DNA of 64,000 bases from Antedon mediterranea (taxonomy: Eukaryota > Animalia > Echinodermata), in assembly GCF_964355755.1 (NCBI RefSeq), contig NC_092678.1, positions 17,935,365-17,999,364 on the forward strand. The letters run 5' to 3'. This document shows positions 6,551 to 54,152 of the stretch, piece after piece. The position numbers were made by a program, and so were the translations under genes. Numbering within the stretch: the first letter of the stretch is position 1; every line of letters begins with the position of its first letter. The notes below the pieces were generated by a model. That model saw only the letters and a program-made list of their open reading frames with translations, had not been told where the DNA came from and searched no databases.

Positions 6551-7134
6551 TTAAACTAAAACCTGCTGGTACTAAACGCTGCAATATAACCAGGTTCTTG
6601 TAAAACAGTGGCAAAAAAATGTATAGACTTTTGTTACATAAGTTTATTTTTTAGGACAGCATGCCATCTAATAATAACTATTACCAGGGAAGGATTCCAC
6701 ACACTCCCGACTTACTATCGAAGCAGTTTGCGTCATGGAGAAAAGTGAATTGGCCGTAGAATTGCATGGCATGGGTATTTAGGACAAAAAGAACCGCTTC
6801 ATAAGCATAGAACACATTATTACATAGATTGTGTCAACGGTTTTAAACTAAAACCTGCTGGTACTAAACGCTGCAAAATAACCAGGCTTCTTGTAAAACA
6901 GTAGCAAAAAAATGAATGGACTTTTGTTACATACGTTTTTTTTTTAGGACAGCATGCCATCTAATAATAACTATTCCCAGGGAAGGATTCCACACACTCC
7001 CGACTTACTATCGAAGCTGTTTGCGTCATGGAGAAAAGTGAATTGGCTGTAGAATTGCATGGCATGGGTATTTAGGATAAGGGACGCTTCATAAGCATAG
7101 ATCACATTATTACATAGATTGTGTTAACGGTTTT
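6551..7134. repeat. Two-copy tandem duplication, ~292-bp unit
   Basis: ttaaactaaaacctgctggtactaaacgctgcaa... starts at 6551 and 6843, with few differences. Confidence 0.9.
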
Positions 7135-11390: not shown

Positions 11391-12828
11391 TATTTTTAAT
11401 TGTTGTCTGAGATACAAAAAAACTGTTTGGATGATCCATCATCATGATTGGTCGACTCAATTGAGTTGCGCTTAAGTCATTGCGTCGCGTCCAAGTTGGA
11501 ACTATAACAGGATGGGCCAGTTATATAATAATAATAGGTCGAATACCTTATTCTTTAACATTACAAATCCAGAAAGAAAACACTCCGAGAGTGCATATAA
11601 TACTTACGCCTAAAGTAATTCCGCTACATAATTATGATTTCCACCGAATTGTTGTTATTGTTGTGCCTTGTGCGATTAGGCACAACAATTGCACTACAAC
11701 CTTGTGAATGTGAGTTTCGTGTAATGATATTATATCCAGCCTTATTACACAGTTGTTGAGGGTCTTGGTTCTGCTCAGGATCTTTTTTTCATCACCTTTT
11801 AATATTTTTGTTTTATATTTTATTATTATTTCTTATTCTTAATATTTTACAATTTTTTTAAAGATCTTGTAATTACAGTACAACATAAACCCAGTCAGTT
11901 GCATTTTGTGACCTTTGACCCTAAGTTGCAACAATTTTACTATCGACTACGTTTAATTGAAATCAGCCCAGGATAAGAATATCATCTTTCTAATTATTAG
12001 GCTCATGATTATTAATTTACGGTTTTTGTCTCGGACATCAGGAAGGACTCTAAATCACTAGCCTAAAGGTTTATACATCTAACTGGTCAGGTGGCTAGGT
12101 AGATTTGCGCCCGAGAATAGTAATCATCAAAAGAATTCGAAATAGGGTAAGATGTTCTGGGTCACATGGATGCATCACATACTGTTCATTCGATGTATTT
12201 CGTGATCTGCCTATACTATAAAACAACAAAGAATAACATATACATAGTGAACTAGAACTCAACAATACAACTTTAACTTTACAAATTAATAATAGGCCTA
12301 TATCCACATTTAGTGTCTCTAAATTCATTTATTAAAAACTCAGTAAGATTCAGATTAACTTATTGATTTTACACATCAACATAATAATTGTACTACAGTA
12401 TATACACTTACATGGAATGCTCATCTTATAAAAACCATTATAATCTATAAATCATAATTTAGACACACAGTTGATCTATATTTTCTAATATAAAAAACAC
12501 TAATAGTCTAATACAATAAAACTATACTGTTTATGTTTATAGTATAGAATTTAAAATGAGAGAAAAAATACAGTATATTACAGTAGCATCCGGTAGTTGT
12601 GTGACATGGGTGTATATACCAATTTTATTTTGTTTATTTTGGTTAGTTGGGATTGGGAACCGCACAAAATGAATAACTCATTAGTAATATGGTATGGCGT
12701 ACGAATTGTAGTTTGTTTAGAGCCTACCGAATGGTTTAGACTATTTGCTAGTCGATGTATGGGGTTCGAATCCCATGAGCAACTCATTTTACTTACTCCA
12801 TAGTGAGAGATAGAGAGAGAGATCATTT

Positions 12829-13184: not shown

Positions 13185-13711
13185 CTAAACTGGTTTTTCC
13201 AAGAGACCCTCTTTTGCTTCATCGTTCGCTTTTGCCTCATGCACACGTTTCATTTCGTTCCGTCTCACCACGGTGTAAACCAACGATCCGCCTAATACAA
13301 GTGCGTTACTTATCCACCACAACGCCGTTTTGATATCTTGAAAGTACATGATTGCAAGAATTGTCTGAGCGCACGCTTTCGCCGTGCCGCTTATATTGTG
13401 CGTCAGAGGACTCGTAACTTTAATCTGTAGTCCGCTTACAAAACCGATCGCAAATCCAAATATTCCAGTAATTGTCATCACTAACCAAAACACACCGCTA
13501 TATAATTTGTTAAAGTTTGCAACTTCTTGAAGTTCACCTGAGAAAATTAGTAACGGTATAAAGAGTATAACAGCGTTGATGTTATTGTTGTACATTAACC
13601 TCCAGATGTTGTTATCAACACACGGTAGTGTTTTCTTAGTGAAAATAGCATTAAGTGATACACATAAACTTGCTAGAACACCATAAATTACACCTTTATA
13701 GTTGAGAACAC
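13185..13711 (-). CDS. SLC35C1: GDP-fucose transporter 1, coding exon 6 (last)
   Basis: Acceptor ttttAG at 13713-13712, phase 1. Encodes [39 protein letters not shown]...[22 protein letters not shown]...EKPV*, with the SLC35C1 hallmark [18 protein letters not shown]. Confidence 0.95.
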
Positions 13712-14887
13712 CTAAAAGAATAAAGAAATTAGGACATTAATTCTATTAATTAATATATGTTTTCATAGTGAAAATGGCATTAAGTGATACACATAAACTT
13801 GCTAGAACACCATGAATTACACCTTTATAGTTGAGAACACCTAAGAGAATAAAGAAATTAGGACATTAATTCTATTAATTAATATATGTTTTCATAGTGA
13901 AAATGGCATTAAGTGATACACATAAACTTGCTAGAACACCATGAATTACACCTTTATAGTTGAGAACACCTAAGAGAATAAAGAAATTAGGACATTAATT
14001 CTATTAATTAATATATGTTTTCATAGTGAAAATGGCATTAAGTGATACACATAAACTTGCTAGAACCCCATGAATTACACCTTTATAGTTGAGAACACCT
14101 AAAAGAATAAAGAAATTAGGACATTAATTCTATTAATTAATATATGTTTTCATAGTGAAAATGGCATTAAGTGATACACATAAACTTGCTAGAACACCAT
14201 GAATTACACCTTTATAGTTGAGAACACCTAAAAGAATAAAGAAATTAGGACATTAATTCTATAAATTAATCTATGTTTTCATAGTGAAAATAGCATTAAG
14301 TGATACACATAAACTTGCTAGAACACCATAAATTACTCCTTTATAGTTGAGAACACCTAAAAGAATAAAGAAATTAGGACATTAATTCTATTAATTAATC
14401 TATGTTTTCTTAGTGAAAATAGCATTAAGTGATACACATAAACTTGCTAGAACACCATGAATTACTCCTTTATAGTTGAGAACACCTAAAAGAATAAAGA
14501 AATTAGGACATTAATTCTATTAATTAATCTATGTTTTCTTAGTGAAAATAGCATTAAGTGATACACATAAACTTGCTAGAACACCATAAATTACTCCTTT
14601 ATAGTTGAGAACACCTAAAAGAATAAAGAAATTAGGACATTAATTCTATTAATTAATCTATGTTTTCTTAGTGAAAATGGCATTTTAAGTGATACACATA
14701 AACTTGCTAGAACACCATAAATTACTCCTTTATAGTTGAGAACACCTAAAAGAATAAAGAAATTAGGACATTAATTCTATTAATTAATATATGTTTTCTT
14801 AGTGAAAATAGCATTAAGTGATACACATAAACTTGCTAGAACACCATAAATTACTCCTTTATAGTTGAGAACACCTAAAAGAATAAA
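13630..14887 (-). repeat. 129-bp tandem array (10 copies) comprising the intron-5 3' end, splice acceptor and first ~82 nt of SLC35C1 exon 6
   Basis: Exon-start-equivalent positions at 13711, 13840, 13969, 14098, 14227, 14356, 14485, 14614, 14745, 14874. Confidence 0.95.
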
Positions 14888-14934
14888 TGTGTACGCATGT
14901 GCATTTTGTGTGTAATGGATGTATAAATACGTAC

Positions 14935-15043
14935 CAGTGATTCCTTCTTGATCAACACCAAGTACAAAGCCACCAATGATTGTAATACAACACAATAGTG
15001 CTGACTTTGAGGTTGTCTGCTTTAATATAAGATATGACATCAC
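14935..15043 (-). CDS. SLC35C1: GDP-fucose transporter 1, coding exon 5
   Basis: ctAG|[36 protein letters not shown](G)|GTACGT; 109 nt. Confidence 0.95.
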
Positions 15044-15801: not shown

Positions 15802-15918
15802 CACATTAAACACAGTTGTAAGAGATCTGCCAACATTGTAAAAAGCAACTCCAACATATTTTAAACAAAGATTATTAAATACAATCATACCAACAAATAC
15901 AATGGAAAGAGGTAAAAC
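15802..15918 (-). CDS. SLC35C1: GDP-fucose transporter 1, coding exon 4
   Basis: cAG|[39 protein letters not shown]|GTAAGT; 117 nt; highly conserved SLC35C1 segment. Confidence 0.97.
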
Positions 15919-16437: not shown

Positions 16438-19400
16438 TAGTAGAGCAGTTAACGCCATAAAAATAGCCAAGTTGTGCACTTTATTACCAAAGCATGAAAC
16501 TTGCCACAAAGTTTCTTTGATGTGTATAGATTCAAAATATCGGGGGGTGCCAAGTGTCCAACGTCCGGTATGGCGGCCATCTTGATTTCAAAATGGCCAC
16601 CATAAAAACAAAAAGTGTTCATATCTTGGCAACTATAAACAGTAGAGACTTGATTCTGGTGTTAAATTGTTCACAAACCACATATTTCTATTTGCTCTAA
16701 TGAAAAGTTTCGTAAAAAAATGACCGGAAATGACGTTTCTTCCAGCTTGACCTTTGACCTCTTATCTGTATATCTCGGTAACTACTGATCATTTTCAATC
16801 GATTTTGGTGTCATTTTGTTCAGAATAGAGACATTTATATTTGTAGTAATGAAACATTTTCACATAAAATGACTGGAAATACAATTTATAACCTTTGACA
16901 TATATAATTATGTGAACATATTGTATGTGGTTTACATTGATATAATGCACTTAATTTTTTTTACCGAAATAAATGACACTTAATAAAAAAATGACCAGGA
17001 ATTATTCTGAATTTTTTACTTTTGATGTGATAGGATAGGCGTAAAGTATGACAGATCACTGAGAAACATCAATCACTGAGCTCATCTATGCCGACTTGTT
17101 TGCTAAACTGTGATGTGTCAATCGTTAGATAAAAGTTTTGGTCCTCTCTCCTCCTTCATCTTTTCTTTTTTTTTTTGTAATGTATTATACCATATGGACA
17201 ATTGTCTGAAATAAAAGTTGAATTGAATTGTTAGATGCCATTTGGAAATATTTTTTCGTTGGCCTCTTTGATGTTGCATATGAGACAAGTTCGGAAAGTT
17301 CTCATTTTCACGAGTTAAGAGAACACCGTCTTTCAAAGTACTTACTACAAACTTATCCTGCATTTGTGCAGTAGACCTACTTTCATTAGTCCGAAACTCA
17401 GATAATTCTTGTTCATTTTCGTTGCATCTAAAAAAATGTACTCCATTTTTATGGTAATGGGCCTTTGCTGTAAACCATCTGAATCCTTTTCCTCGATTTT
17501 CTCTAGTCATTGATTTTTTAGCAAAATCCGAACCAAATCAATTCGTAAAAGACATCTCAATATAATTATTCAAGTAATCCTCAAATTAGTGACATGGACC
17601 TACAATATACTGTTCTGTACAAGACCTTTTTAGGCATCCACCTGTGGACTTTCACTTTGAAGGTCTTGGTCTCCTAATCATACAAGAAACAATGTCTGAT
17701 TTAATCAATCATAGTAGTGGGTCCAGACAAAGAAGGGGGTGTAAGACCATCCACAGACAAAGAAGGGGGTATAAGACCATCCACAGACAAAGAAGGGGGT
17801 ATAAGACCATCCACAGACAAAGAAGGGGGTATAAGACCATCCACAGACAAAGAAGGGGGTGTAAGACCATCCACAGACAAAGAAGGGGGTGTACGACCAT
17901 CCACACACAAAGAAGGGGGTATAAGACCATCCACAGACAAAGAAAGGGGTGTAAGGCCATCTACAGACAAAGAAGGGGGTGTAGGACCATCCACAGACAA
18001 AGAAGGGGGTGTAAGACCATCCACAGACAAAGAAGGGGGTGTAAGACCATCCACAGACAAAGAAGGGTGTAGGACCATCCACAGACAAAGAAGGGGGTGT
18101 AGGACTATCCACAGACAAAGAAGAGGGTGTAAGACCATCCACTGACAAAGAAAGTGGTATAGGACCACTTACAGACAAAGAAGGGGATATAAGACCATCC
18201 ACAGACAAAGAAGGGGGTATAAGACCATCCACAGACAAAGAAGGGGGTGTAGGACCATCCACAGACAAAGAAGGGGGTGTAAGACCGTCCACAGACAAAG
18301 AAGGGGATGTAAGACCATCCACAGACAAAGAAGTGGGTATAAGACCATCCACAGACAAAGAAGGGGGTATAAGACCATCCACAGACAAATAAGGGGTATA
18401 AGACCATCCACAGACAAAGAAGGGGGTATAAGACCATCCACAGAGAAAGAAGGGGTGTAAGACCATCCACAGACAAAGAAAGGGTGTAAGACCATCCACA
18501 CACAAAGAAAGGGGTGCAAGACCATCCACACACAAAAAAAAGGGTGTAATACCATCAACAGACAAAGAAAGGGGGTATAAGACCATCCACAGACAAAGAA
18601 GGGGGTATAAGACCATCCACAGACAAAGAAGGGGTGTAAGACCATCTACAGACAAAGAAAGGGGTGTAAGACCATCCACACACAAATAAAGGGGTGTAAG
18701 ACCGTCCACAGACAAAGAAGGGGATGTAAGACCATCCACAGACAAAGAAGTGGGTATAAGACCATCCACAGACAAAGAAGTGGGTATAAGACCATCCACA
18801 GACAAAAAAGGGGGTGTAGGACCATCCACAGACAATTCAGGGGGTATAAGACCATCCACAGACAAAGAAGGGGGTATAAGACTATCTATAGACAAAGAAG
18901 GAGGGGTAGGATCATATTAACCGAGGAAGCATACAAAAAGAAGATGCAATCAAAATAGGCCTACCACTTGGAAAACAATAAATTGTAGAATAACTGAGGC
19001 TTGATTGTTGAAATATAAAGGGTTCTTTGTAAGGTCATTAATAATATATTGATATAAACACGATCATCATACTATTCATTTGACATTCAAATACAGTCTA
19101 TCTCGAAAAGAAGCTCATGAATACTATCACCTTTTCGAGGTTTTACGGTATTCCATAACATGTATCTTAATTCCTCTGTCAAACTATTAAAACTTTTAGC
19201 GAATCAGAAGGTGCCAACATCATTGAACTAATGGTACCACCCAGCACATTGTTTACCAATTTTATGTAACATATACAATTTAAGTCCATTAATTATTTAA
19301 TATAATTACGCCTATCAGGTCAAAGTTCAAAATTAGATGCATTTAAGACCAACACAAACCCACATACAGTATATTCACATAATTAAAAATCAATAAATAA

Positions 19401-19854
19401 ATGTCAAAGGTCATAAATTGTATTTCCGGTCATTTTATGTGAAAATGTTTCATTACTACAAATATAAATGTATTTATTCTGAACAAAATGACACCAAAAT
19501 CGATTGAAAATGACCAGTAGTTACAGAGATATACAAATACGAGGTCAAAGGTCAAACTGAAAGAAACGTCATTTCCGGTCATTTTTTGAAAAAAATTTTC
19601 ATTAGAGCAAATAGCAATATATAGTTTGTGAACAATTTGAGACCAGAATTAAGTCTCTAATGTGTATAGTTGCCAAGATATGAACATTTTTTGTTTTTAT
19701 GGTGGCCATTTTGAAATCAAGATGGCCGCCATACCGGACGTTGGACACTTGGCACCCCCTGATATTTTGAATCTATATATATTAAAGAAACTTTGTGCCA
19801 AGTTTCATGCTTTGGTAATAAAATGCACAGCTCATGTCACTAACTGCTCTACTA
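16438..19854. mobile_element. Academ-like DNA transposon derivative with ~500-bp TIRs in SLC35C1 intron 3
   Basis: CAG|TAGTAGAGCAGTTA ... TAACTGCTCTACTA|CAG, giving a 3-bp TSD and TAG termini. Arm 16438-~16930 is the reverse complement of ~19365-19854. A decayed internal ORF (17118-17510, AHYHKN) may be a transposase remnant. Confidence 0.8.
17722..18912. repeat. 30-bp minisatellite (~40 copies) inside the Academ-like element
   Basis: Unit TAAGACCATCCACAGACAAAGAAGGGGGT(G/A). It explains all ORFs called at 17644-18895. Confidence 0.95.
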
Positions 19855-20265: not shown

Positions 20266-20406
20266 CTCTCTCGTCGTACGGTAATCAAACCGAAGCTTTG
20301 GAAACGTGATCATGCCTGGAAACATACGTCCCAAACAACTGAGCAGGTAACAAAGTAGAATCGTAACCACACATTGGTAACAAGTGATAAATAGGGGTGC
20401 ATTCAA
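20266..20406 (-). CDS. SLC35C1: GDP-fucose transporter 1, coding exon 3
   Basis: ttcAG|LNAPLFITCYQCVVTILLCYLLSCLGRMFPGMITFPKLRFDYRTTRE|GTAAAT; 141 nt, phase 0/0. Not in the ORF track in this frame. Confidence 0.93.
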
Positions 20407-21224: not shown

Positions 21225-21285
21225 CTTAAGATCTTCACTGCTAAGCAGGTATTTATTGAGAAATACAAGGGATATTGAAATAAAC
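21225..21285 (-). CDS. SLC35C1: GDP-fucose transporter 1, coding exon 2
   Basis: aacAG|(G)FISISLVFLNKYLLSSEDLK|GTATTC; 61 nt; completes the split Trp codon of exon 1. Confidence 0.95.
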
Positions 21286-22141
21286 CTGTTGAGAACAATC
21301 AAGGAAAAATAAGTCATTACATAAATCATATAAAATACTGTATACAGTAGTAGATCTATAAAGTCGAACAACAACCTTTATAATAACTTACTGTGACTAT
21401 AATTAAATACATATTTCCTTTTATTTATATACAGTCTGCCTTTTTTGGGCCTAATTAAAAAGTTATTAATTATGCCTATGCCTGTTAATTATTATTATTA
21501 TTATTAATATTAGCCTAGGCCTAGGACCAAACATTTGATCTCAAAATATTAAGTTGTAAATGTTTATATTGTTTATTTAATGCAGCTTATTCTTAATTGG
21601 TGTATCCCATTATAACTTTGTTTTGTTTTTAATTAATTTTTACTAGGCCTACTTTAGTTTTGTTATTTGTTAATGTAATATTTTTGTATTTTATAATAAT
21701 GATGGGAGTTAGAGTTAGTTTTCTGTTTGGCCTATTATTACTTGCTTCTGGCAAGATAGATGAATTGTAAAGTACTCTTAAGAACTTTTGCCGAATAAAT
21801 ATTAATATTATTAAAAATAAATATAAAAAAATCATAATTAAGAAATACCGGAATGGTGTCCGGCGGGGGATAGTTTATTACCATTAATTAGTTAGGGTCT
21901 AGGCCTAGACCTAGCCTAAATGTAAAGCACCTAGAGGGGTCAGTGATCCATTAGTCGCTAGCTATATAAATATTGTTTATTATTTTTATTATTAATTTAA
22001 AAAAAAACAGAAAGGGCCACCTGTCCTGGCAATCATTGATCAATCAACAATAAGGGTAGGCCTAGGCAGGCCTCTCTAGGCTAGTCTAGTTAAGTTAATA
22101 TAATATTATAGAGCTCAATCATGCATTTTCATTATTGCATC

Positions 22142-23021
22142 TGTTATGCGCGATTTGAACGATTTGCGCAATTTGAAATTGCGCAAAAAAATCCTTGCGC
22201 AATTTGAAATTGCGCAAAGAATTCTTGCGCAATTTAAAATTGCGCAAGGATTTTTTTGCGCAATTTCAAATTGCGCAATCAACTTGCGCAATTTCAAATT
22301 GCGCAAGAAAATCTTTGCGCAATTTTAAATTGCGCTGCACAATTTGTAAATTGCGCAAGATAGTTCTTGCGCAATATGACACCTTTGCGCAATTTGAAAA
22401 CGAACTGTAAATTTTCAAATTGCGCAACAAAATTCTACCAGACAATCGGTATTATAATAATTTATTGGAAACTAAATAACTCAAAATAAAACATAATAAA
22501 TGCGAAGATAACATGTGTATAATAAATACATAACATTTATTATTACAATTAAATAATATTATCACTGTAACTTGAAATAAATCAAAATAAATGTAAAAAT
22601 TAAGTTTTTAATATTAGTTTAAGCTAGGCCATGTAACCTAGTCAGTATCAGTAGTCCAGACCCTAGCTAGGCTAGAGTAGTATAGCCGGCCGCCCGCGCC
22701 GCGCCCGCCTGGTGGAACACCACCGCTTCGTTTTCCTTCGTCGGTTCTTCGACGGTATGCTAACTTATAACAATATTTGCACTACTAAAATAAGGAAATG
22801 CGATATTTATCTTTAATTTTGAATCATTCTTAGAAATTACTATAAAAATATGGGTGTGCATGATTTCACAATCTGTCGAAAAACCTTGCGCAATTTGCAG
22901 ATTACTTGCGCAATTTAATACGTTGCTTGCGCAATTTGAAACACATGTTTCAATTCAAATTGCGCAAGGATTTTTTTTGCGCAATTTCAAATTGCGCAAA
23001 TCGTTCAAATCGCGCATAACA
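22142..23021. mobile_element. Ginger-like foldback MITE (TGT...ACA, 4-bp TSD CATC) with TTGCGCAA palindrome arrays, copy 1
   Basis: CATC|TGTTATGCGCGATTTGAACGATTTGCGCAA ... TTGCGCAAATCGTTCAAATCGCGCATAACA|CATC; TIR ~65 bp. Confidence 0.8.
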
Positions 23022-23264
23022 CATCCAAACCACCGGTCAAGAAGGACACATTATGCCTATATCCATAGTATAGGCCTAGCTAGGCCTCTGTCTAGGCTAA
23101 TGTAATAGGGCAAGCCAGGCTAGGCCTACTAGGTCTAAGGCCTAGCTAGGGATAGCGCTAGCGCAGCCTAGGTAGGTAGGCCAGAACTAGGCTAGCCTAG
23201 TAGGCCTAGCCTACTTCTGAAATTGTAACAACATAGGTCTCGGCCTAGTATAAGTATACATTAC

Positions 23265-23443
23265 CAATATGAAGCTACAGCTAGACCTATTTGTATGTAC
23301 ATCGACCATAAGCTCCCAAAATCTTTACTTTTCGGCTTAGCCATTCTAGCGCCGTAATCCAGTCTTTGATCTCCCTCAGCAGCGGCGGCGAACGATGACA
23401 CATTTTCTAGGCCCAAGGGAAAATTCGATTTTTCTTCTGTCAT
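23265..23443 (-). CDS. SLC35C1: GDP-fucose transporter 1, coding exon 1 (proximal duplicate)
   Basis: MTEEKSNF...SLWSMYIQIGLAVASY(TG)|GTAATG; 179 nt; joins exon 2 in frame (YW-FISISLVFLNKYLL). Confidence 0.88.
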
Positions 23444-25044
23444 GATTTGTTAAAACTTCAAATTGTAATTTAAATTAGTTGATTTAACTGCTTTTTGGAC
23501 ATTTACAGCACGCTGCCACGAACACCAAACAGTCACTATTAACATAATAATAACTGTTTACCTAACCAATGAATGAATATGTTAACAAAAGGTAGAAGTG
23601 TGCACTACATTATACCCCTTTTACAAAATGAGCTGGTCCATTATTGGAGCGTCGTCGTGTACGTCCGGCCGTAGGATCGGAATTGACTCCGCCTCCTGCG
23701 GTCGGACGGTATGGTACCAAATCATATTTAAAATTTAATAAAATTTTTTTAAATACTGTTTTGTTTCAGTAACAGACCCTTTAATTGTTAAAATTCCGGG
23801 AAAGCTAAATTATTATGTTATTTTAATCTTAGTTGGAAACTGATGGTGAAAACTAATTACTGTATAAGTACTGCAAGCTGCCAGCACTGTATTTGAAAAA
23901 AACATTGATAAATACCACAAACACAAACAAACAAAATTAACGTTCATAACATGTATTTAATGGTATCCTCCAAAAACTAATTTGACACTTCTAAAAAAAC
24001 CCTCAACCTCAGAGCATGCTGAATTACTGTAGAGAGCATGGTGCCAACATACACAACGTCGAAAAAGAAGACCATCTCAAAAAGAAGCCCCTCTCTTTGG
24101 TTTGGAAAAATAATCCCGAAAAGAAGCCCAACTGATTGAAATCAAGCCCACTGGGCTTCATTTCAAAATATGCCAGATGCAGACTAAAATGTATGATTCT
24201 CAATCTCATAGATTTTTCATTACATAAATCATATAAAATACTGTATACAGTAGTAGATCTATAAAGTCGAACAACAACCTTTATAATAACTTACTGTGAC
24301 TATAATTAAATACATATTTCCTTTTATTTATATACAGTCTGCCTTTTTTGGGCCTAATTAAAAAGTTATTAATTATGCCTATGCCTGTTAATTATTATTA
24401 TTATTATTAATATTAGCCTAGGCCTAGGACCAAACATTTGATCTCAAAATATTAAGTTGTAAATGTTTATATTGTTTATTTAATGCAGCTTATTCTTAAT
24501 TGGTGTATCCCATTATAACTTTGTTTTGTTTTTAATTAATTTTTACTAGGCCTACTTTAGTTTTGTTATTTGTTAATGTAATATTTTTGTATTTTATAAT
24601 AATGATGGGAGTTAGAGTTAGTTTTCTGTTTGGCCTATTATTACTTGCTTCTGGCAAGATAGATGAATTGTAAAGTACTCTTAAGAACTTTTGCCGAATA
24701 AATATTAATATTATTAAAAATAAATATAAAAAAATCATAATTAAGAAATACCGGAATGGTGTCCGGCGGGGGATAGTTTATTACCATTAATTAGTTAGGG
24801 TCTAGGCCTAGACCTAGCCTAAATGTAAAGCACCTAGAGGGGTCAGTGATCCATTAGTCGCTAGCTATATAAATATTGTTTATTATTTTTATTATTAATT
24901 TAAAAAAAAACAGAAAGGGCCACCTGTCCTGGCAATCATTGATCAATCAACAATAAGGGTAGGCCTAGGCAGGCCTCTCTAGGCTAGTCTAGTTAAGTTA
25001 ATATAATATTATAGAGCTCAATCATGCATTTTCATTATTGCATC

Positions 25045-25924
25045 TGTTATGCGCGATTTGAACGATTTGCGCAATTTGAAATTGCGCAAAAAAATCCTTG
25101 CGCAATTTGAAATTGCGCAAAGAATTCTTGCGCAATTTAAAATTGCGCAAGGATTTTTTTGCGCAATTTCAAATTGCGCAATCAACTTGCGCAATTTCAA
25201 ATTGCGCAAGAAAATCTTTGCGCAATTTTAAATTGCGCTGCACAATTTGTAAATTGCGCAAGATAGTTCTTGCGCAATATGACACCTTTGCGCAATTTGA
25301 AAACGAACTGTAAATTTTCAAATTGCGCAACAAAATTCTACCAGACAATCGGTATTATAATAATTTATTGGAAACTAAATAACTCAAAATAAAACATAAT
25401 AAATGCGAAGATAACATGTGTATAATAAATACATAACATTTATTATTACAATTAAATAATATTATCACTGTAACTTGAAATAAATCAAAATAAATGTAAA
25501 AATTAAGTTTTTAATATTAGTTTAAGCTAGGCCATGTAACCTAGTCAGTATCAGTAGTCCAGACCCTAGCTAGGCTAGAGTAGTATAGCCGGCCGCCCGC
25601 GCCGCGCCCGCCTGGTGGAACACCACCGCTTCGTTTTCCTTCGTCGGTTCTTCGACGGTATGCTAACTTATAACAATATTTGCACTACTAAAATAAGGAA
25701 ATGCGATATTTATCTTTAATTTTGAATCATTCTTAGAAATTACTATAAAAATATGGGTGTGCATGATTTCACAATCTGTCGAAAAACCTTGCGCAATTTG
25801 CAGATTACTTGCGCAATTTAATACGTTGCTTGCGCAATTTGAAACACATGTTTCAATTCAAATTGCGCAAGGATTTTTTTTGCGCAATTTCAAATTGCGC
25901 AAATCGTTCAAATCGCGCATAACA
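25045..25924. mobile_element. Ginger-like foldback MITE, copy 2 (part of the 2,903-bp duplication)
   Basis: Matches 22142-23021, including the CATC TSD. Confidence 0.8.
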
Positions 25925-26167
25925 CATCCAAACCACCGGTCAAGAAGGACACATTATGCCTATATCCATAGTATAGGCCTAGCTAGGCCTCTGTCTAGGC
26001 TAATGTAATAGGGCAAGCCAGGCTAGGCCTACTAGGTCTAAGGCCTAGCTAGGGATAGCGCTAGCGCAGCCTAGGTAGGTAGGCCAGAACTAGGCTAGCC
26101 TAGTAGGCCTAGCCTACTTCTGAAATTGTAACAACATAGGTCTCGGCCTAGTATAAGTATACATTAC

Positions 26168-26346
26168 CAATATGAAGCTACAGCTAGACCTATTTGTATG
26201 TACATCGACCATAAGCTCCCAAAATCTTTACTTTTCGGCTTAGCCATTCTAGCGCCGTAATCCAGTCTTTGATCTCCCTCAGCAGCGGCGGCGAACGATG
26301 ACACATTTTCTAGGCCCAAGGGAAAATTCGATTTTTCTTCTGTCAT
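26168..26346 (-). CDS. SLC35C1: GDP-fucose transporter 1, coding exon 1 (distal duplicate)
   Basis: Same translation as 23265-23443. Spliced CDS 179+61+141+117+109+527 = 1134 nt = 377 aa + stop. Confidence 0.88.
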
Positions 26347-26399
26347 GATTTGTTAAAACTTCAAATTGTAATTTAAATTAGTTGATTTAACTGCTTTTT

Positions 26400-26620
26400 G
26401 GACATTTACAGCACGCTGCCACGAACACCAAACAGTCACTATTAACATAATAATAACTGTTTACCTAACCAATGAATGAATATGTTAACAAAAGGTAGAA
26501 GTGTGCACTACATTATACCCCTTTTACAAAATGAGCTGGTCCATTATTGGAGCGTCGTCGTGTACGTCCGGCCGTAGGATCGGAATTGACTCCGCCTCCT
26601 GCGGTCGGACGGTATGGTAC
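26400..26620 (-). promoter_or_regulatory. Probable SLC35C1 promoter/5' region (duplicated at 23497-23717)
   Basis: CpG-rich patch in AT-rich DNA immediately upstream of the ATG, with CCAAT/ATTGG boxes (~26468, ~26546). Confidence 0.4.
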
Positions 26621-27747
26621 CAAATCATATTTAAAATTTAATAAAATTTTTTTAAATACTGTTTTGTTTCAGTAACAGACCCTTTAATTGTTAAAATTCC
26701 GGGAAAGCTAAATTATTATGTTATTTTAATCTTAGTTGGAAACTGATGGTGAAAACTAATTACTGTATAAGTACTGCAAGCTGCCAGCACTGTATTTGAA
26801 AAAAACATTGATAAATACCACAAACACAAACAAACAAAATTAACGTTCATAACATGTATTTAATGGTATCCTCCAAAAACTAATTTGACACTTCTAAAAA
26901 AACCCTCAACCTCAGAGCATGCTGAATTACTGTAGAGAGCATGGTGCCAACATACACAACGTCGAAAAAGAAGACCATCTCAAAAAGAAGCCCCTCTCTT
27001 TGGTTTGGAAAAATAATCCCGAAAAGAAGCCCAACTGATTGAAATCAAGCCCACTGGGCTTCATTTCAAAATATGCCAGATGCAGACTAAAATGTATGAT
27101 TCTCAATCTCATAGATTTTCCGCTCATATCGTTTCAAATAAATTAATAAACTTTTTCAGTATATCACCGGGCAGTTTAGAATTTGTTCTGTGCCAGTTGT
27201 ATGGGTTTATAAAAGCGGTCTAATGGTTAGGACGGGAATCTGCATATAAAGGACATCACACTCTTTTTGTCAAACTTATGATACTGATAGTGTAGATAGA
27301 GCTTAAAATTTAAACATAAACACAAATTGTTTTGAAGTTCAACAAAACACAGATCTTCATAATTCCACAAAATCAAATGGCTGCTATTTAAGATGCATAT
27401 TATGTAAAAGAAAATACAAGGTAGGCCTGTATTGTTTATATTTTCTACACATGTATTATAAACCCTAAATAGATTCCTGTCATATGATTGGACGATTGTG
27501 GGTTACGGTATATTATAAAAAAATAATTGCCCTATTTTTACTATAATTCCACTCATATTCATTATTTGTATACTACTATATATCGGTATTATTATTACTT
27601 TCATTTAATTCATTTTAAAATTGTCTTTATACAACATCTCTACCTCCCCTTTAGATAAAAAAAGTTTGTGGATTATGATGCATCAGGAATGACTTGTAAA
27701 CTCCAAACACGCCTTCCATATTTTTAGGATTACTATTCCACACCTTG

Positions 27748-27837: not shown

Positions 27838-28702
27838 AAGCACTGTCTACACTAGTGTGATGTGCCTAATACAGTAGTGATATGCAAAAATATTTTAGTG
27901 ATATGACATCATCATGTCCATGTGGACATCACATTTGTTTGTAACATATAAAGTTTAATAGTGTAGACACAGCTTAAAGCTTAAAGTTCGACAACAAAAA
28001 TGTGATGTGCCTAAATATGGTAGTGATATGCCTAAATATGGTAGTGATATGCCTAAATATGGTAGTGATATGCCTAAATATGGTAGTGATATGCCATCAT
28101 CATGTCCATATGATAGTGATATGCCTAAATATGGTAGTGATATGACATCATCATGTCCATATGATAGTGATATGCCTAAATATGGTAGTGATATGACATC
28201 ATCATGTCCATATGATAGTGATATGCCTAAATATGGTAGTGATATGACATCATCATGTCCATATGATAGTGATATGCCTAAATATGGTAGTGATATGACA
28301 TCATCATGTCCATATGATAGTGATATGCCTAAATATGGTAGTGATATGACATCATCATGTCCATATGATAGTGATATGCCTAAATATGGTAGTGATATGA
28401 CATCATCATGTCCATATGATAGTGATATGCCTAAATACCTGTATGGTAGTGATATGACATCATCATGTCCATATGATAGTGATATGCCTAAATATGGTAG
28501 TGATATGGCTAAATATGGTAGTGATATGACATCATCATGTCCATATGATAGTGATATGCCTAAATATGGTAGTGATATGACATCATCATGTCCATATGAT
28601 AGTGATATGCCTAAATATGGTAGTGATATGACATCATCATGTCTATATATGGGCACATCACATTTTTTTGTCACATAGTTTGATAGTGTAGACAGAGCTT
28701 AA
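27838..28702. repeat. MITE family (TIR GCTCTGTCTACACTATCAAAC): one short copy plus one copy whose interior is expanded into a 21/45-bp minisatellite; other copies near 8161-8292, 27250-27303, 49320-49487, 59170-59283
   Basis: Units GCCTAAATATGGTAGTGATAT and GACATCATCATGTCCATATGATAGTGATAT repeated 28009-28650. Single copies of the same interior lie between AGCTCTG..ACAC / GTGTAGACAGAGCT ends elsewhere. Confidence 0.85.
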
Positions 28703-32195: not shown

Positions 32196-33236
32196 ACTAT
32201 TGGTTTGGTTACTACTTACAGGCCACAGTACTTCAGAGTCTATTGGTTTGGTTACTACTTACAGGCCACAGTACTTTATATATCCTAGAGTCTATTGGTT
32301 TGGTTACTACTTACTAATACAGGCCACAGTACTTTATATATCCTAAAGTCTATTGGTTTGGTTACTACTTACAGGCCACAGTACTTCATATATCCTAGAG
32401 TCTATTGGTTTGGTTACTACTTACAGGCCACAGTACTTTATATATCCTAGAGTCTATTGTTTTGGTTACTACTTACAGGCCACAGTACTTCATATATACT
32501 AGAGTCTATTGGTTTGATTACTACTTACAGGCCACAGTACTTCATATATCCTAGAGTCTATTGGTTTGGTTACTACTTACAGGCCACAGTACTTCATATA
32601 TCCTAGAGTCTATTGTTTTGGATACTACTTACAGGCCACAGTACTTCATATATCCTAGAGTCTATTGTTTTGGTTACTACTTACAGGCCACAGTACTTTA
32701 TATATCCTAGAGTCTATTGTTTTGGTTACTACTTACAGGCCACAGTACTTTATATATCCTAGAGTCTATTGGTTTGGATACTACTTACAGGCCACAGTAC
32801 TTCATATATCCTAGTGTCTTATTGTTTTGGATACTACTTACAGGCCACAGTACTTCATATATCCTAGAGTCTATTGTTTTGGATACTACTTACAGGCCAC
32901 AGTACTTCATATATCCTAGAGTCTATTGTTTTGGATACTACTTACAGGCCACAGTACTTCATATATCCTAGAGTCTATTGGTTTGGATACTACTTACAGG
33001 CCACAGTACTTCATATATCCTAGAGTCTATTGTTTTGGTTACTACTTACAGGCCACAGTACTTCATATATCCTAGAGTCTATTGGTTTGGATACTACTTA
33101 CAGGCCACAGTACTTCATATATCCTACAGTCTATTGGTTTGGATACTACTTACAGGCCACAGTACTTCATATATCCTACAGTCTATTGGTTTGGATACTA
33201 CTTACAGGCCACAGTACGTCATATACCCTAGAGTCA
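32196..33236 (-). repeat. 52-bp tandem array (~20 copies) comprising the end of DPM3 coding exon 1 plus its GTAAGT donor
   Basis: Minus-strand unit ACTCTAGGATATATGAAGTACTGTGGCCT|GTAAGTAGTA(A/T)CCAAACCAATAG; the terminal copy is the real exon end. Confidence 0.95.
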
Positions 33237-33328
33237 ATTTGTACTGGTACCAGATTGAATACAAGTGATGCCCAGACACTAACGAATAATGAAAGCCCAA
33301 TCAGCCACTGCATCAATTTTGTTGCCAT
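33206..33328 (-). CDS. DPM3: DPM3 coding exon 1
   Basis: MATKLMQWLIGLSLFVSVWASLVFNLVPVQIDSRVYDVLWP|GTAAGT matches the DPM3 N-terminus (MTKLxQW...VLWP). An acceptor caccAG at 33336 implies an unlocated upstream non-coding exon. Total 41+10+26+16 = 93 aa. Confidence 0.95.
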
Positions 33329-38439: not shown

Positions 38440-38790
38440 CACACAGTGAACACGTAGTAGAACATGAACATACAGTGACACATGTGTTTTTTGTGTGAAC
38501 ACATAGTGGAACATGAACACAGTGACACATGTGTTTTTTGTGTGAACACATAGTGGAACATGAACACAGTGACACATGTGTTTTTTGTGTGAACACATAG
38601 TGGAACATGCACACAGTGACACATGTGTTTTTGTGTGAACACATAGTGGAACATGAACATACAGTGACACATGTGTTTTTTGTGTGAACACATAGTGGAA
38701 CATGAACACAGTGACACATGTGTTTTTTGTGTGAACACATAGTGGAACATCAACACAGTGAGACATGTGTTTTTTGTGTGAACACATAGT
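38440..38790. repeat. ~47-bp minisatellite (~7 copies, degenerate copies back to ~38243)
   Basis: Unit GAACACAGTGACACATGTGTTTTTTGTGTGAACACATAGTGGAACAT. Confidence 0.9.
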
Positions 38791-42439: not shown

Positions 42440-43362
42440 TTACGGAATATAACAGTATACACCAGATTGTTTTGTAGATTTGTTCGGATATATACCAAAA
42501 TCATTAACTCGGACAGCATTACTACAGGCCCTTGGGGTTGTTATCGGAAATTGTAGTTTTCCGCTTGTGACCCACCCATAGTTGCAACAGTCATAATCAT
42601 TTTCCCATGCCTGATAAAGTTCGTCCTCCGTTGCCATTCGGCCGCCGTGGTCTATACACATTGCCTCTCCGTCGAAAAAATTTAACGTGTAGCGAGTAAC
42701 CCCTTCCCCGTAGATAACACGGTGCGCGGGTAATGGATCGATGTATGAGGTCGTCTGGTTTGTGGGAGGAACGTTACAAAAGGCGAACAGCTCACGCGTT
42801 GAGTCTCTGAAAAAAACATTATTACTTCCTGGGTATTGCCAGAAATTAGCACTGGCAAGCGACCCTTGGCTACACGCGACACCTGCCAACAGATATGAGA
42901 GCCAAGCAAATTCACAAAGATTGGCACCTGAGGAAACTGAGCTATTCTTCACCTCTTGTGGTGTCGCCAGTCTGCCGTTGAAAGTGTAGTTACAACACTT
43001 ATCTGCATCATGTCCTGTTAACTTGACGTCATTACTATCTGTCAGTCGAATAATCCGTTGGTTTTCTGGTAAGTAATCGAATGAGGTTGTCACAGATTTG
43101 TGACAATAAACGCCACTGCGATACGGCTTGCAAGGGAAGACATTACTGCGTGTCCCAGGTGACCTTAACGTACACGGATTTGTTAGTTCCGTAAATGCAA
43201 TTTCACCACTGATAAGCCAGCCGTGAGCGCAATCGTGTTCGCCCCCAAGTCGATACTCATCGAACAATTGTTCATAAGAAGCGATTGAGCCTAAATGGAA
43301 ACTGCATACATTACGAACAAACTCATAGTTCTCGTCTAGTGGCACAAAAAACAGATCGTCAC
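42440..43362 (-). CDS. PAN/Apple + triple Link-module protein, exon 3 (three Link/Xlink modules)
   Basis: tttAG acceptor, phase 1, in frame with ORF 42440-43345. Three repeats of C...G.(L/I/M)A(T/S)..(Q/E)(L/V)......C..(G/A)W......C...(VY/AF)C. The third (YTLNFFDGEAMCIDHGGRMATEDELYQAWENDYDCCNYGWVTSGKLQFPITTPRAC...GVYCY) is a near-canonical Link module. Confidence 0.85.
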
Positions 43363-43665
43363 CTAAATTAACAAAAAATACCCTTTGTTCAAGACAAATA
43401 CATTTAAATTATGGTTATTTTTTAAAAAATAAGGAGAATCAATCAAGATGAGTCCATTTCAATTCACTTGATATTTTAGATGGCTTTCGTGTAGGACTAA
43501 AGTCGGATTTCGAATGCAATTGAAGACGAGACAGAAACTGAAAGTTATTGAAATTAAGCGATATGTCTTTTTGTTGTATAATATGTGTTGATGCATTGAT
43601 TATTAGTTGTGTACTAAACTTTGATGATGGTAACTTTTGTTTTGAAATGTTATTTTATTACTTAC

Positions 43666-49991: not shown

Positions 49992-50216
49992 GTGAGTTTT
50001 AAAGTCAAGCATTCCGGTACCGATTGAGTTTAATATTATCGCTGTAGGCCTATGTTTTAGGCCATTTTGTACTCTGAAATCTGAGGGTAGCACACACCTG
50101 CTCATTAGCTGCCCTGTTTAAACCAAACCTCTCTGGTCTGGTTTACATTCTGTGCGAGTCTCGCCAATGGGACACTCTTTAACTATTTGTAGCATACATT
50201 GGATATATTAACTACC

Positions 50217-52499
50217 ATGGATACACATATAAATATACGCCGTTTATGGATTATTTTAATTTTTGCTGGATTGGTTTATATTGTCGAAGTTAATTCTCAG
50301 TTTTTAACAGAGCCACAATCTGCTGAAGTGACGCAGGGTATAGACCATACTTTGGAATGCGTTGTCAACAAAACCTATCTTGCTGGTTTGTTTTTTCTGG
50401 CATGGACTAAAGATTCTGAGGTTTTCTCGGCGCGTAACCAAATTGATAAGGTTGCTTTAGAAAATATAAATGGTGAAGACCCAGAAGATCGATACACAAT
50501 TACCAAAGTTGACCAAGGTGACACAGGAACGTATAAATTGATTATTGATCAAGTAAAAGGTGTAGATTCTGGAAATTATCAATGTGTAATTTGTCAACAT
50601 CCGTCAACTTCATATGTGTGTACAGCCATTACAGATTTTAAATCGAGTGTAGCAACATTTAATGTCTTGTACACTCCATCAGTCCCTGAATACCCAGAAT
50701 GTAATGGTTTGGACAGTTCTGCAACTGTGTCTATTGGAACTCAAGTTGAGGTGACATGTGTGTCGGAAATTGGTGATCCAAAGGTTCAATTACAATGGAA
50801 TAAGGATGGTGTACCATTATTAAGTACAGTAACTGAAAGAGAAGAGAATAACAGACTTTATCTTATATATACTTTTACAGCAGAACTCTCCCATACTGGT
50901 ATGATTTTAAGCTGCTCTTCTACAAGCCCTCATTTTACATCATATTCTGAATCTTGTAGCTTTAATGCGCTTACTGTTGTTGACATGCCAGTGGTGGCAG
51001 TTACTTCAGGAGCTGCAGAGTATGAAGAAGGATCACCAGCAAACTTTACCTGTACAGCCTCAAGTGCTACTTCAATTACTTTCGAATGGTCTACAGGAAA
51101 TATACCAAGCAGCAGGTATACACAGAATAATATGGGAATGGAATCTGTTTTGACTATCACTTCAGTTATAGCTAGTGATCATCAGACTGCAATCAAATGT
51201 GTTGTAAGAAATGAGCAGGGACAAACTGCAGAGGACCAAGTATTTTTGGAAGTAATTGGTGGGCCTACAGGTATAATTCCAACAAGCAGAATGAATCCAC
51301 CTACCACTAAATCAGTAACAACCAATAGTAACGAACCAAAATTAACTACAACACCGGTACCAGAAGATAGTAGTAATCTTGGTGCCGCTATTGGTGGCGC
51401 TGTTGCAGGCATTGTTATAATTATTTTGGTTATACTGCTCGCCATATATTTCTGTGGGAAGAGAAAACAGAAAATGGATTTGTCCGGAAAAGTCATGTCG
51501 ATTGGTTCACCTCCAAATGGAATTGGTAGCCATGCACCGCCAACAAAGAAAATGGATTTTGATGATGATGTTAAAAAGGAACCTTTACCTATTACTGATG
51601 AGCCAGATGTAGTGCCAAGGCAGCATAATGGTAATCACGATCCACGGTCCTGGTGGCGTGAATCTGTGCCCGGAGATGCGTATACCAAAGACGACAACGA
51701 ATATCCAACTATAAAACGTATGCAGATGCCATTTAATCAGAGGGCGCCATCTATGGAAAATCTGCAAGAGCGAGTGGAAATGGATAATTATCGTAGCGGA
51801 TCAAATGGTTATGTTGAAACCGATGTTTATCGTGAAACGGAAAATATGTCTCCAGCTAGCGGTCGCTACGATTACAATCCTCCGAGTGTTCACAGTGATA
51901 ACCCAGCATTGAGTTATCATGATTACCATAACCCTCAGTTTGATCAACCAGAAAGCTATCACAGACCGCCATCAGTTGATCATTACAGTGAATATAGTTA
52001 CCAACAGGAAGATCCTAGAATGCAACATCCCCAGGATGATCCCAGAATGCAACATCCCCATCCATCGGTAAATTATGGTCCACCGCCACCACAAGCACAA
52101 GATAGGTATGACAATTATTACAACAGTTACGATCGCAGAAACCCTGCTAATTACGGCCCCAGACCAGGAATTGACAATCCAAACTTTAACAGTGATATGC
52201 ACGTTGCGAATGATATGTATAACGCACGCAATCCAAATTATCCAGACAGTTACGACCCTCATGGTTTTTCCGAGGATGGCTCCGTGTTTAGCAGTGTAAC
52301 GGACCGTTATTATGATCAAGATTCAAGGATTGAAGGAGCCAGATCGCCTGCATTTTATCCCGATAATAATGGATACGCTTCATCGGATCGGCCAATTAGT
52401 CCATACGCTGATATCCCACCTGGCCAAACAAATAACTCAAGTGATGTTTTGTACATGCAGGGACATGACATAGATGTTACTGATCCCAGTTATGTTTAA
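50217..52499 (+). CDS. Type I transmembrane Ig-superfamily cell-adhesion receptor (3 Ig domains; CADM/nectin/Kirrel-like architecture), 760 aa, intronless CDS
   Basis: Kozak ACCATGG at 50217. Signal peptide (LWIILIFAGLVYIVEVNS), three Ig domains (LECVV..WTK..DSGNYQC; VTC..LQWNK..LSC; FTC..FEW..IKC), Thr/Pro stalk, TM AAIGGAVAGIVIIILVILLAIYFC+KRK, Tyr/Pro/Asp-rich tail ending PSYV. Confidence 0.92.
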   Translation: MDTHINIRRLWIILIFAGLVYIVEVNSQFLTEPQSAEVTQGIDHTLECVVNKTYLAGLFFLAWTKDSEVFSARNQIDKVALENINGEDPEDRYTITKVDQGDTGTYKLIIDQVKGVDSGNYQCVICQHPSTSYVCTAITDFKSSVATFNVLYTPSVPEYPECNGLDSSATVSIGTQVEVTCVSEIGDPKVQLQWNKDGVPLLSTVTEREENNRLYLIYTFTAELSHTGMILSCSSTSPHFTSYSESCSFNALTVVDMPVVAVTSGAAEYEEGSPANFTCTASSATSITFEWSTGNIPSSRYTQNNMGMESVLTITSVIASDHQTAIKCVVRNEQGQTAEDQVFLEVIGGPTGIIPTSRMNPPTTKSVTTNSNEPKLTTTPVPEDSSNLGAAIGGAVAGIVIIILVILLAIYFCGKRKQKMDLSGKVMSIGSPPNGIGSHAPPTKKMDFDDDVKKEPLPITDEPDVVPRQHNGNHDPRSWWRESVPGDAYTKDDNEYPTIKRMQMPFNQRAPSMENLQERVEMDNYRSGSNGYVETDVYRETENMSPASGRYDYNPPSVHSDNPALSYHDYHNPQFDQPESYHRPPSVDHYSEYSYQQEDPRMQHPQDDPRMQHPHPSVNYGPPPPQAQDRYDNYYNSYDRRNPANYGPRPGIDNPNFNSDMHVANDMYNARNPNYPDSYDPHGFSEDGSVFSSVTDRYYDQDSRIEGARSPAFYPDNNGYASSDRPISPYADIPPGQTNNSSDVLYMQGHDIDVTDPSYV

Positions 52500-54152
52500 A
52501 ATTGCACCAGAAGTTGTATGTTTATAGTTGACCTACAGTATTCCAAGGTCAAATCAGATTCAACTAAAAGCAAGCTTAAGGTCTGTTTTATTTGTGTGAA
52601 TTAAGCGGAAAATTTATTTTTTTAAATGTTCTTGTTTATGGAAATACGACTTCTGTACACAGTTACGTCTTGGAAACATACTGTACTGTACCTCCTGACA
52701 GGTAGCTATCTTTAAAATCAATGAATTTACTGTACTGTATACTTTGGAAATTCCCATTGTTGTTGCTCAAGTAGTTTAAATTTTGACCTTGAGGTCAAAT
52801 TTTAAAAATCATGAAAATAAGCCGGGATATATTTGAATTGAATTACGGTATTCTTAACAATAATATCCATTTGGTGTACAATTATTATTAATTAATTAGT
52901 AATTATTATATTACCTACAGTAGTTTTTTTTCAGGCACATTTCACAAGATTTTAATTTTATTTTTATCATTTATCATTAAAATAATTAGAAAAAAGTATT
53001 ATCTATATTTAATTTGGACATTCGTAGTAACCCTGCATAATTACATTCAAACGAATTCATTCAAAGACCACTAACTGAATTTTGAAATTTCCACATACAT
53101 TAAATAATATATCCTTTGTGGTAAGGCCTTACCAATTTGCAATATAAAATTCCATAAAATGTTGATTGATAAAGTCATAGATGCATTAATTTTATAAAAC
53201 ATTCGTTTAGTCATTCCATTAAATGCTTTAATAATATTAATATTAATGTATCAATTACATTTCAACTAATTGTGTGTTAAAAAGTTTTTCCAATATAATA
53301 TTCTTTCATTAAATTTAACGATAGTTTGTCCCTCGAAAAAATAATTGTTTTAATGTTTTAGTTGAATATGTAGGCCATTTTTTTTAATGTCACATGATAG
53401 TTATTAACTTTAACCAACAATTTTGAAAAAAAAAGCTATTTAATTTAAAGCAAAAAAAATACACAGTAAAATCATTACTGTAATTTTTTTTCTCGTCTGA
53501 ATAACTTTATTAAAACTGCAAAATGGCCTATTCAAAGTATTATTTTATCAATCTACATTTTTGGGGACAATACATCTTTTAATTTAATCAATTTAATAAA
53601 CAAGTTTTCATATTATTATCAATAATCCAGTACATATTAGGCAAATTTGTTAATTTTACTTAAATTTTATAAACCACTGAAATTGCAATTTTGATTAGAA
53701 TTAGTTATACAGTAGCTGTAACATGTACAGTGTAGCAAACAAAGACAATACGTACTATTAAAATAGTCAATAGTTGTAATATATTGGCCCTACAGTACAT
53801 TATTAAGACAAAGTCATTTTTTGTATGTATTACACAGTATGGGATACATAATTATTAATGATTAAATTTTTTCATATTTATTTAAGATTAGAACAAACAA
53901 GCCTACTGTATGCAGTGATAATGATATGAAACTTGTTTTATTTAAATATAAAACAAATATAAATGAAAAGTTAAAATACTGTACTGATCCATCATATTAG
54001 TTTAAAAGTGGCAAAATCATTAGATAATTTGACGTAGAGATGCATTTATTTATTGCTTCACAGTTTTATTATTTATTAATTTATACATTGTGTACTGTAC
54101 TCTATTTAATGCATTGGTTACCAAAACGTGTTTAATTTACCACTCTGGTATT

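What the first reader, a model, noticed from the sequence alone, without database searches (positions are those of the whole stretch)
13630..14934. Ten tandem copies of the SLC35C1 terminal splice acceptor; only the farthest one makes a full transporter
Seen: a 129-bp unit (intron end with CCTAAT branch-like motif and TTCTTTTAG, plus ~82 nt of exon 6) is repeated 10 times. The copy nearest the exon-5 donor is only 60 nt away. Each of the nine upstream copies runs into intron-derived sequence and a premature stop (…FTKKTYIN* type), losing the C-terminal TM helices. Established: spliceosomes normally favour the first competent acceptor. Inference: this gene must skip nine near-identical acceptors. 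That could occur by terminal-exon definition, by recursive splicing (every copy is AG|GT, though GTGTTC is a weak donor), or by a copy-number-dependent fraction of unproductive transcripts acting as a VNTR rheostat on GDP-fucose import.
Basis: partly seen in the sequence, partly recalled or inferred. Interest (0 to 1): 0.85.

Follow-up and report, generated by a model that had tools for sequence, protein, structure and literature searches.

The report
Feather-star splice-acceptor "mirage" repeat allele
In a feather-star GDP-fucose transporter gene the end of the last intron and the start of the last exon are repeated ten times and only the final copy can give a whole protein; this is likely a tolerated, variable-length repeat of a kind already known from lancelets, which the cell would mostly splice past.

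Summary
The array is real (13629-14887, minus strand). It lies in a six-exon GDP-fucose transporter gene whose product is identical to an Antedon mediterranea protein. Only the acceptor at 13711 gives the 377-aa protein. Correction: copy 1, 60 nt from the donor, keeps only 13 nt of the intron end and lacks CCTAAT. Two runs of one sample hold the unit-to-unit junction, and their depths fit about 12 copies per diploid (10 plus about 2), not 10 plus 10. A close relative has a single copy at this place. Spliced RNA from another sample of the species is normal but comes from a different allele, so splicing of the ten-copy allele is untested. Protein-altering changes sit only in internal copies, which suggests that copy 10 is the one used. 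The regenerated recursive donor is weaker than all five real donors. Closest known: amphioxus "mirage" minisatellites and human CBS 844ins68. This scan has reported the same kind of array in other genomes. New member of a known kind; low to moderate interest.

The parts
26168..26346 (-). coding exon 1, upstream copy (inside a 2903-bp perfect tandem duplication)
   Evidence: tblastn and exon model; self-BLAST
23265..23443 (-). coding exon 1, downstream copy
21225..21285 (-). exon 2
20266..20406 (-). exon 3
15802..15918 (-). exon 4
   Evidence: spliced contigs of X5 and X9
14935..15043 (-). exon 5; its donor CTG|GTACGT opens the last intron at 14934
   Evidence: spliced contigs of X5 and X9
14888..14934 (-). 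47-nt donor-side unique part of the last intron; no branch-like yTnAy between -49 and -11 of acceptor 1
14792..14887 (-). copy 1: 13 nt of intron end plus 83 nt of exon start (acceptor 14874); exon part differs from copy 10 at one synonymous site
13758..14791 (-). copies 2-9: 46 nt of intron end plus 83 nt of exon start each (copy 2 has 2 extra bases); decoy acceptors at 14745, 14614, 14485, 14356, 14227, 14098, 13969, 13840
13712..13757 (-). intron end in front of copy 10; its last 36 nt match the single-copy relative B, so this is the ancestral acceptor region
   Evidence: record 32
13185..13711 (-). coding part of terminal exon 6 (copy 10 plus unique sequence; residues 203-377 and stop)
   Evidence: one contig of X5 runs from exon 5 through it (record 17)
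12624..12638 (-). first AATAAA hexamers after the stop (candidate polyadenylation signals, untested)
21314..27119 (.). 2 x 2903-bp, 100% identical tandem duplication holding exon 1, its upstream region and most of intron 1

Best explanation
This is a tandem array of the last intron's end and the last exon's start that is likely a tolerated, length-variable 'mirage' minisatellite allele, from which most mRNA would be made by one direct splice from the exon-5 donor to the tenth copy. Shown: the repeated unit, the stops after copies 1-9, the single copy in relative B and the ancestral nature of the 46-nt intron end. Inferred: a local duplication, perhaps helped by the 3-nt match ACA at the unit ends, was expanded by unequal exchange, and copy 1 lost its 33-nt branch-point region. 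Inferred mechanism of choice: each decoy offers only 83 exon bases, then AU-rich intron sequence (15% GC) and no good donor, so it cannot be defined as an exon. Copy 10 is followed by real exon (37% GC) and is the copy nearest the 3' end signals. Copy 1 lacks branch candidates, and copies 1-5 are predicted to hide their acceptor in a hairpin. Some leak to decoys is likely and would give a truncated protein of about 230-245 residues.
For: Depth of 8 contig records in X1 and X2 fits the assembled allele plus a second allele of about 2 copies (rms log2 0.039 in X2 with weights 145 and 153; 0.051 in X1), against 0.385 and 0.14 for two ten-copy alleles. Relative B: one 992-nt contig spans exon 6 and 36 intron bases with no repeat. 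Among exon changes seen only in the array, 3 of 4 alter the protein (Y>H in 5 of 9 decoys, K>M in 5 of 9, a frameshift in 1) and none is in copy 10. All 11 listed differences from B in exon 6 are synonymous. Copies 2-10 differ by 3.6 substitutions per 129 nt on average, with 1 identical pair of 36, so the array is not brand new. Precedent: mirages do not disturb normal mRNA and vary between haplotypes (PMC3087553 section 16; PMC3902484 passages); the distal site is used in CBS 844ins68 (PMC2630376 passages). Hairpin of -9.3 kcal/mol over the acceptor in copies 1-5, z about -2.5 in the two tested.
Against: No RNA from the ten-copy allele was seen. The X5 mRNA carries GGA at exon +20 and T at 13554, a combination no single copy of this allele gives, so it is another allele. 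Copy 2 lies 189 nt from the donor, inside the under-250-nt range where proximal sites are reported to win (PMC9225289 passages). Copies 6, 7 and 9 have acceptors like that of copy 10 and are predicted to be as open or more open. The X5 mRNA uses a GGA-type exon start, so the hairpin is not an absolute block if its intron end is the same. With equal haplotype weights X1 fits two long arrays better (rms 0.11-0.14 against 0.25-0.29); the 10+2 fit in X1 needs a 13:3.5 skew. End copies of arrays escape homogenisation anyway (PMC3087553), so the clean copy 10 is weak evidence of selection; only one exon-6 change (13554) can be placed on this allele's own lineage. Two array variants are shared with outside alleles and may be imported, which weakens the age argument.
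Confidence: 0.6

Rival explanations
1. The ten-copy allele is a weak or null allele: proximal acceptors (mainly copy 2) capture much of the splicing, giving transcripts with a stop in the last exon, and the allele persists because the other haplotype supplies the transporter.
For: Copy 2 has the full ancestral acceptor 189 nt from the donor; proximity rule for short introns (PMC9225289); the sample appears to carry a much shorter second allele; no RNA of this allele was available.
Against: Nine variable sites among the copies with an intact copy 10 and exon 6; published junction duplications splice distally; the best depth fit may put a decoy on the second allele too.
Confidence: 0.27
2. Copy number is a selected rheostat that tunes GDP-fucose import through the share of unproductive transcripts.
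For: Copy number appears to vary between alleles; the layout permits graded leak.
Against: Single copy in relative B; the one spliced contig of X5 has no tail sequence; 64 kb of this window hold many other tandem arrays (46 TRF rows); nothing points to selection.
Confidence: 0.04
3. The array is removed stepwise by recursive splicing at the AG|GT of each copy.
For: All 10 copies are AG|GT, and re-splicing would restore the frame exactly.
Against: The regenerated donor scores below all five real donors (4.5 against 5-7, crude count); the intron is only 1.2 kb; not conserved in relative B. Known recursive sites have strong donors in very long introns (recalled).
Confidence: 0.03
4. Repeats exist, but the assembly misstates their arrangement (11+1 copies, or copies 1-5 and 6-10 from different haplotypes joined).
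For: 31-letter contigs give only totals of about 12 copies; the two blocks differ at +20; the same gene holds a 100% identical 2903-bp duplication that could be an assembly fault.
Against: Counts of each variant type match the assembled copies well (4.2 observed against 4.2 expected for the GGA type in X2); variants are shared across the block border.
Confidence: 0.06

Closest known systems
Amphioxus 'mirage' minisatellites (globin BflGb6 acceptor type; Adh3, troponin C, PGBD5); PMC3087553 section 16 read whole, PMC3902484 passages
   Same: Tandem units made of an intron's 3' end plus the next exon's 5' part (BflGb6: 150-160 bp, 6 and 3 units on two haplotypes); splice signals kept; inner units homogenised and border units excluded.
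   Different: Here a crinoid, a terminal exon with no downstream donor, ten copies, and the first two acceptors within 60 and 189 nt of the donor. Normal splicing is reported for the amphioxus loci but is untested for this allele.
Human CBS c.844_845ins68; PMC2630376 and PMC7490669, passages
   Same: Polymorphic duplication of an intron/exon junction (52 intron plus 16 exon bases); a normal mRNA needs the distal acceptor.
   Different: One extra copy, internal exon, distal use shown by experiment; here nine extra copies with 83 exon bases each, before the last exon.
[quoted passage not shown]
   Same: Tandem duplication yields repeated AG|GT.
   Different: The duplicated AG is an existing acceptor; no new intron is shown, and the existing one lengthens from at least 60 to 1223 nt.
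Recursive splice sites (recalled; no paper read)
   Same: AG|GT at each acceptor.
   Different: Weak regenerated donor, short intron, absent in the close relative.

Membership tests
mirage minisatellite | tandem repeat that spans an intron-exon boundary | tested here: met
   46 intron plus 83 exon bases, 9.7 copies; intron part matches the single-copy relative
mirage minisatellite | units keep splice signals | tested here: met
   AG in 10 of 10, branch-like CTAAT in 9 of 10
mirage minisatellite | length differs between haplotypes | tested here: met
   indirect: depth fits 10 plus about 2 copies in both runs when haplotype weights are free; X1 alone is ambiguous with equal weights
mirage minisatellite | inner units evolve in concert, border units excluded | tested here: met
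   copies 6-9 share three exon variants; copies 1 and 10 differ at 1 of 83 exon sites
mirage minisatellite | normal mRNA is made from the array-bearing allele | tested here: inconclusive
   the spliced contigs seen (X5, X9) are normal but come from another allele and from relative B
mirage minisatellite | somatic length instability (reported for Adh3) | not testable with these tools
   needs raw long reads or single-molecule PCR
recursive splice site | AG immediately followed by GT | tested here: met
   10 of 10 copies
recursive splice site | strong regenerated donor (feature recalled) | tested here: not met
   4.5 against 5-7 for the five real donors, crude U1 match
recursive splice site | very long intron and conservation (features recalled) | tested here: not met
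   1223 nt; single copy in relative B
recursive splice site | splicing intermediates at the site | not testable with these tools
   all listed runs are kept as contigs
SLC35C1 / GDP-fucose transporter 1 | nucleotide-sugar transporter (TPT/EamA) domain, best hits named GDP-fucose transporter 1 | tested here: met
   PF03151 E 3e-22 and PF00892; 77% to Anneissia and 59% to human over exon 6; no tree was built
SLC35C1 / GDP-fucose transporter 1 | GDP-fucose transport activity | not testable with these tools
   inferred from similarity only

The most novel reading that the evidence does not exclude
Because the decoys precede a terminal exon and the first two lie in intron-definition range, the ten-copy allele sends a substantial, copy-number-dependent share of splicing to decoys. 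Those transcripts have their stop in the last exon, escape junction-dependent decay and make a half transporter, so array length grades fucose import among wild feather stars. The SNP-barcoded copies, half of them with a predicted acceptor hairpin, then form a natural ladder for measuring 3' splice-site competition at a last exon.
Probability: 0.15. Interest if true: 0.6.

Novelty: new member of a known kind. Interest (0 to 1): 0.3.

Why it matters
The papers read here report that mirages leave mRNA normal but say nothing on how the last acceptor is chosen. This allele is a compact test case: ten nearly identical acceptors that can be told apart by SNPs, in front of a last exon where definition by a downstream donor is unavailable, in an animal that likely also carries a short allele as an internal control. 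As a discovery it is ordinary, since the repeat type is described and recurs in this scan.

Tried and rejected
No genome is held for this window, so paralogues and a species splice-site model could not be examined. PDB sequence search of exon 6: 0 hits. No RNA holder was listed as such, and none for the sample of X1-X4; this blank is no evidence. X1 has no cover at 14914-15039, so the join that makes the 60-nt intron is not checked by reads; a hole proves nothing. The whole array was never laid with reads and all runs are 31-letter-word contigs, so copy order and phase are open. A splice inside the exon that would join the 5' part of copy 1 to the 3' part of copy 10, to explain the X5 mRNA, was rejected: no AG|GT exists at a matching place after +20 (sequence; donor list). 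Whole-region folding is unremarkable (z -0.98 and -0.97). The database model P0002 is not evidence for distal splicing, because reads of a short allele would support the same join. Paper searches with no or no useful hit; no paper on this locus appeared in these searches of the open library. The supplements of PMC3087553 (alignment of the BflGb6 units) were not seen and could bear on how close the match is. No structure prediction was run.

Full report
Observation. The window holds a six-exon gene on the minus strand. The joined exons translate to a 377-aa protein identical to database protein P0002, named 'GDP-fucose transporter 1-like [Antedon mediterranea]', with Pfam TPT and EamA domains. 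The SLC35C1 label rests on best hits, not on a tree. Between exon 5 (donor 14934) and the body of exon 6 lies a 129-bp array of 9.7 copies. The unit is 46 nt of intron end and 83 nt of exon start. Ten AG|GT acceptors lie 60, 189, 320 ... 1223 nt from the donor. Splicing to any of copies 1-9 ends in a stop; only 13711 gives the full protein. The unit ends at residue 230, behind the hydrophobic segment 209-227, so 3 of the 9 hydrophobic segments found (241-259, 276-294, 333-351) would be lost. One correction matters: copy 1 shares only the last 13 intron bases. It has no yTnAy candidate between -49 and -11, whereas copies 2 and 10 have four between -39 and -18.

Is it real, and in whom? Ten runs hold part of the stretch; all are kept as contigs. 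I laid 5 of the 10 on two single-unit stretches. X1 and X2, one sample, contain the junction between an exon piece and the next intron end, and the variant copies, at several times the depth of unique exon 6, so the repeat is not invented by the assembly. Modelling 31-mer counts for 8 contig records, X2 (depth about 300) fits the assembled allele plus a second allele of about two copies (rms log2 0.039, weights 145 and 153) and not two ten-copy alleles (0.385). The cleanest control is two overlapping records that differ by one base: their ratio is 2.11 in X2, against 2.12 expected if one allele is short and 4.23 if both have ten copies. X1 (depth 16-21) gives 3.14; with equal weights it prefers two long arrays, with free weights it also prefers 10+2 but needs a 13:3.5 skew. 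The tool warns that summed contig depth is no copy number, so this is an estimate. An 11+1 split fits equally.

Other animals. X7, a close relative (organism B), has one 992-nt contig that covers exon 6 and 36 bases of the intron end with no repeat. The repeated intron part is therefore the ancestral acceptor region, and it is copy 1 that has lost sequence. X9 (organism B) and X5 (same coded organism as X1, another sample) each have one spliced contig that joins exon 4, exon 5 and a complete exon 6, with no depth on the repeated intron tail. The X5 contig has GGA at exon +20, like copies 1-5, yet runs on into unique exon 6 and has T at 13554. No single copy of the assembled allele gives that, and no matching AG|GT allows a splice inside the exon. 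It is another allele. So the gene is expressed and spliced normally in the species, but the ten-copy allele was not observed as RNA.

History of the array. There are nine variable sites (8 substitutions and a 2-nt insertion). Copies 2-10 differ by 3.6 substitutions on average, and 1 of 36 pairs is identical. Copies 6-9 form a block; copies 1 and 10 differ at one synonymous site. Of four exon changes seen only in the array, three alter the protein (Y>H in 5 of 9 decoys, K>M in 5 of 9, a frameshift in copy 2), and none is in copy 10. The 11 listed differences from relative B in exon 6 (of 14 in that contig) are all synonymous. This fits a long-lived allele whose last copy is translated. It is weak evidence: border units escape homogenisation, two variants are shared with outside alleles, and only one change can be placed on this allele's own lineage.

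Mechanism. Most likely (0.6) the donor is joined directly to copy 10. Each decoy offers 83 exon bases followed by 15% GC, 52% U sequence, while copy 10 continues in 37% GC exon. The decoys have no good donor behind them: the best internal GT scores 5.5 on a crude U1 match and lies only 20 nt in. Copy 10 is nearest the first AATAAA signals (1073 nt against 2107 nt for copy 2); coupling of last-intron splicing to 3'-end formation is recalled knowledge, and my search for it returned nothing. A hairpin of -9.3 kcal/mol is predicted over the acceptor of copies 1-5, against -5.6 for copies 6, 7 and 10 and -2.3 for copies 8 and 9. It could dampen the five nearest decoys but cannot explain skipping 6-9. 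Against all this, copy 2 is a full acceptor 189 nt from the donor, where proximal sites are reported to win (PMC9225289, passages), so a weak or null allele sheltered by its partner stays a serious rival (0.27). Recursive splicing (0.03) fails on donor strength, intron length and conservation. A selected rheostat (0.04) has no support.

Comparison with known systems. Earlier notes of this scan pointed me to amphioxus 'mirages', and I read the source: tandem duplications of an intron's 3' end and the next exon's 5' part, 6 and 3 units on two haplotypes of BflGb6, concerted inner units, excluded border units, and no apparent effect on regular splicing (PMC3087553 section 16; PMC3902484 passages). 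Human CBS 844ins68 is a one-copy polymorphic version in which the distal site is strongly favoured (PMC2630376 and PMC7490669, passages). The array meets four mirage features tested here; normal splicing from the array allele is inconclusive. It differs in lying before a terminal exon and very near the donor.

Verdict. Observation confirmed with one correction; interpretation partly supported; new member of a known kind; interest 0.3. Its value is as a barcoded natural test of acceptor competition at a last exon.

Noticed in passing
window 21314-24216 and 24217-27119: Two 100% identical tandem copies of 2903 bp hold exon 1 of the same transporter gene, its upstream region and most of intron 1, ending 28 nt short of the exon-2 acceptor; blunt junction. 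Either a very recent duplication of the promoter and first exon or an assembly fault.
   Followed up: partly
window 14855 and equivalent sites (exon +20): The synonymous A/T variant changes a predicted hairpin over the acceptor from -5.6 to -9.3 kcal/mol; the A form occurs in copies 1-5 and in the mRNA of another sample.
   Followed up: partly
window 17724-18915: 30-bp minisatellite, about 40 copies, in intron 3 of the same gene.
   Followed up: no
window 50193-52499 (+): 768-codon open frame with V-set, C2-set and I-set immunoglobulin domains.
   Followed up: partly
window 42440-43408 (-): 322-codon open frame with two extracellular link (Xlink) domains.
   Followed up: partly
window 54152-54976 / 56320-57141 and 16473-16905 / 19397-19829: Two pairs of inverted repeats, 826 bp and 433 bp at about 93% identity, possibly ends of mobile elements.
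   Followed up: no
window 32235-33239, 28002-28648, 38446-38790, 6551-7134: Further tandem arrays (52 bp x 19, 21/51 bp mosaic, 47 bp x 7, 293 bp x 2), showing a repeat-prone background.
   Followed up: no
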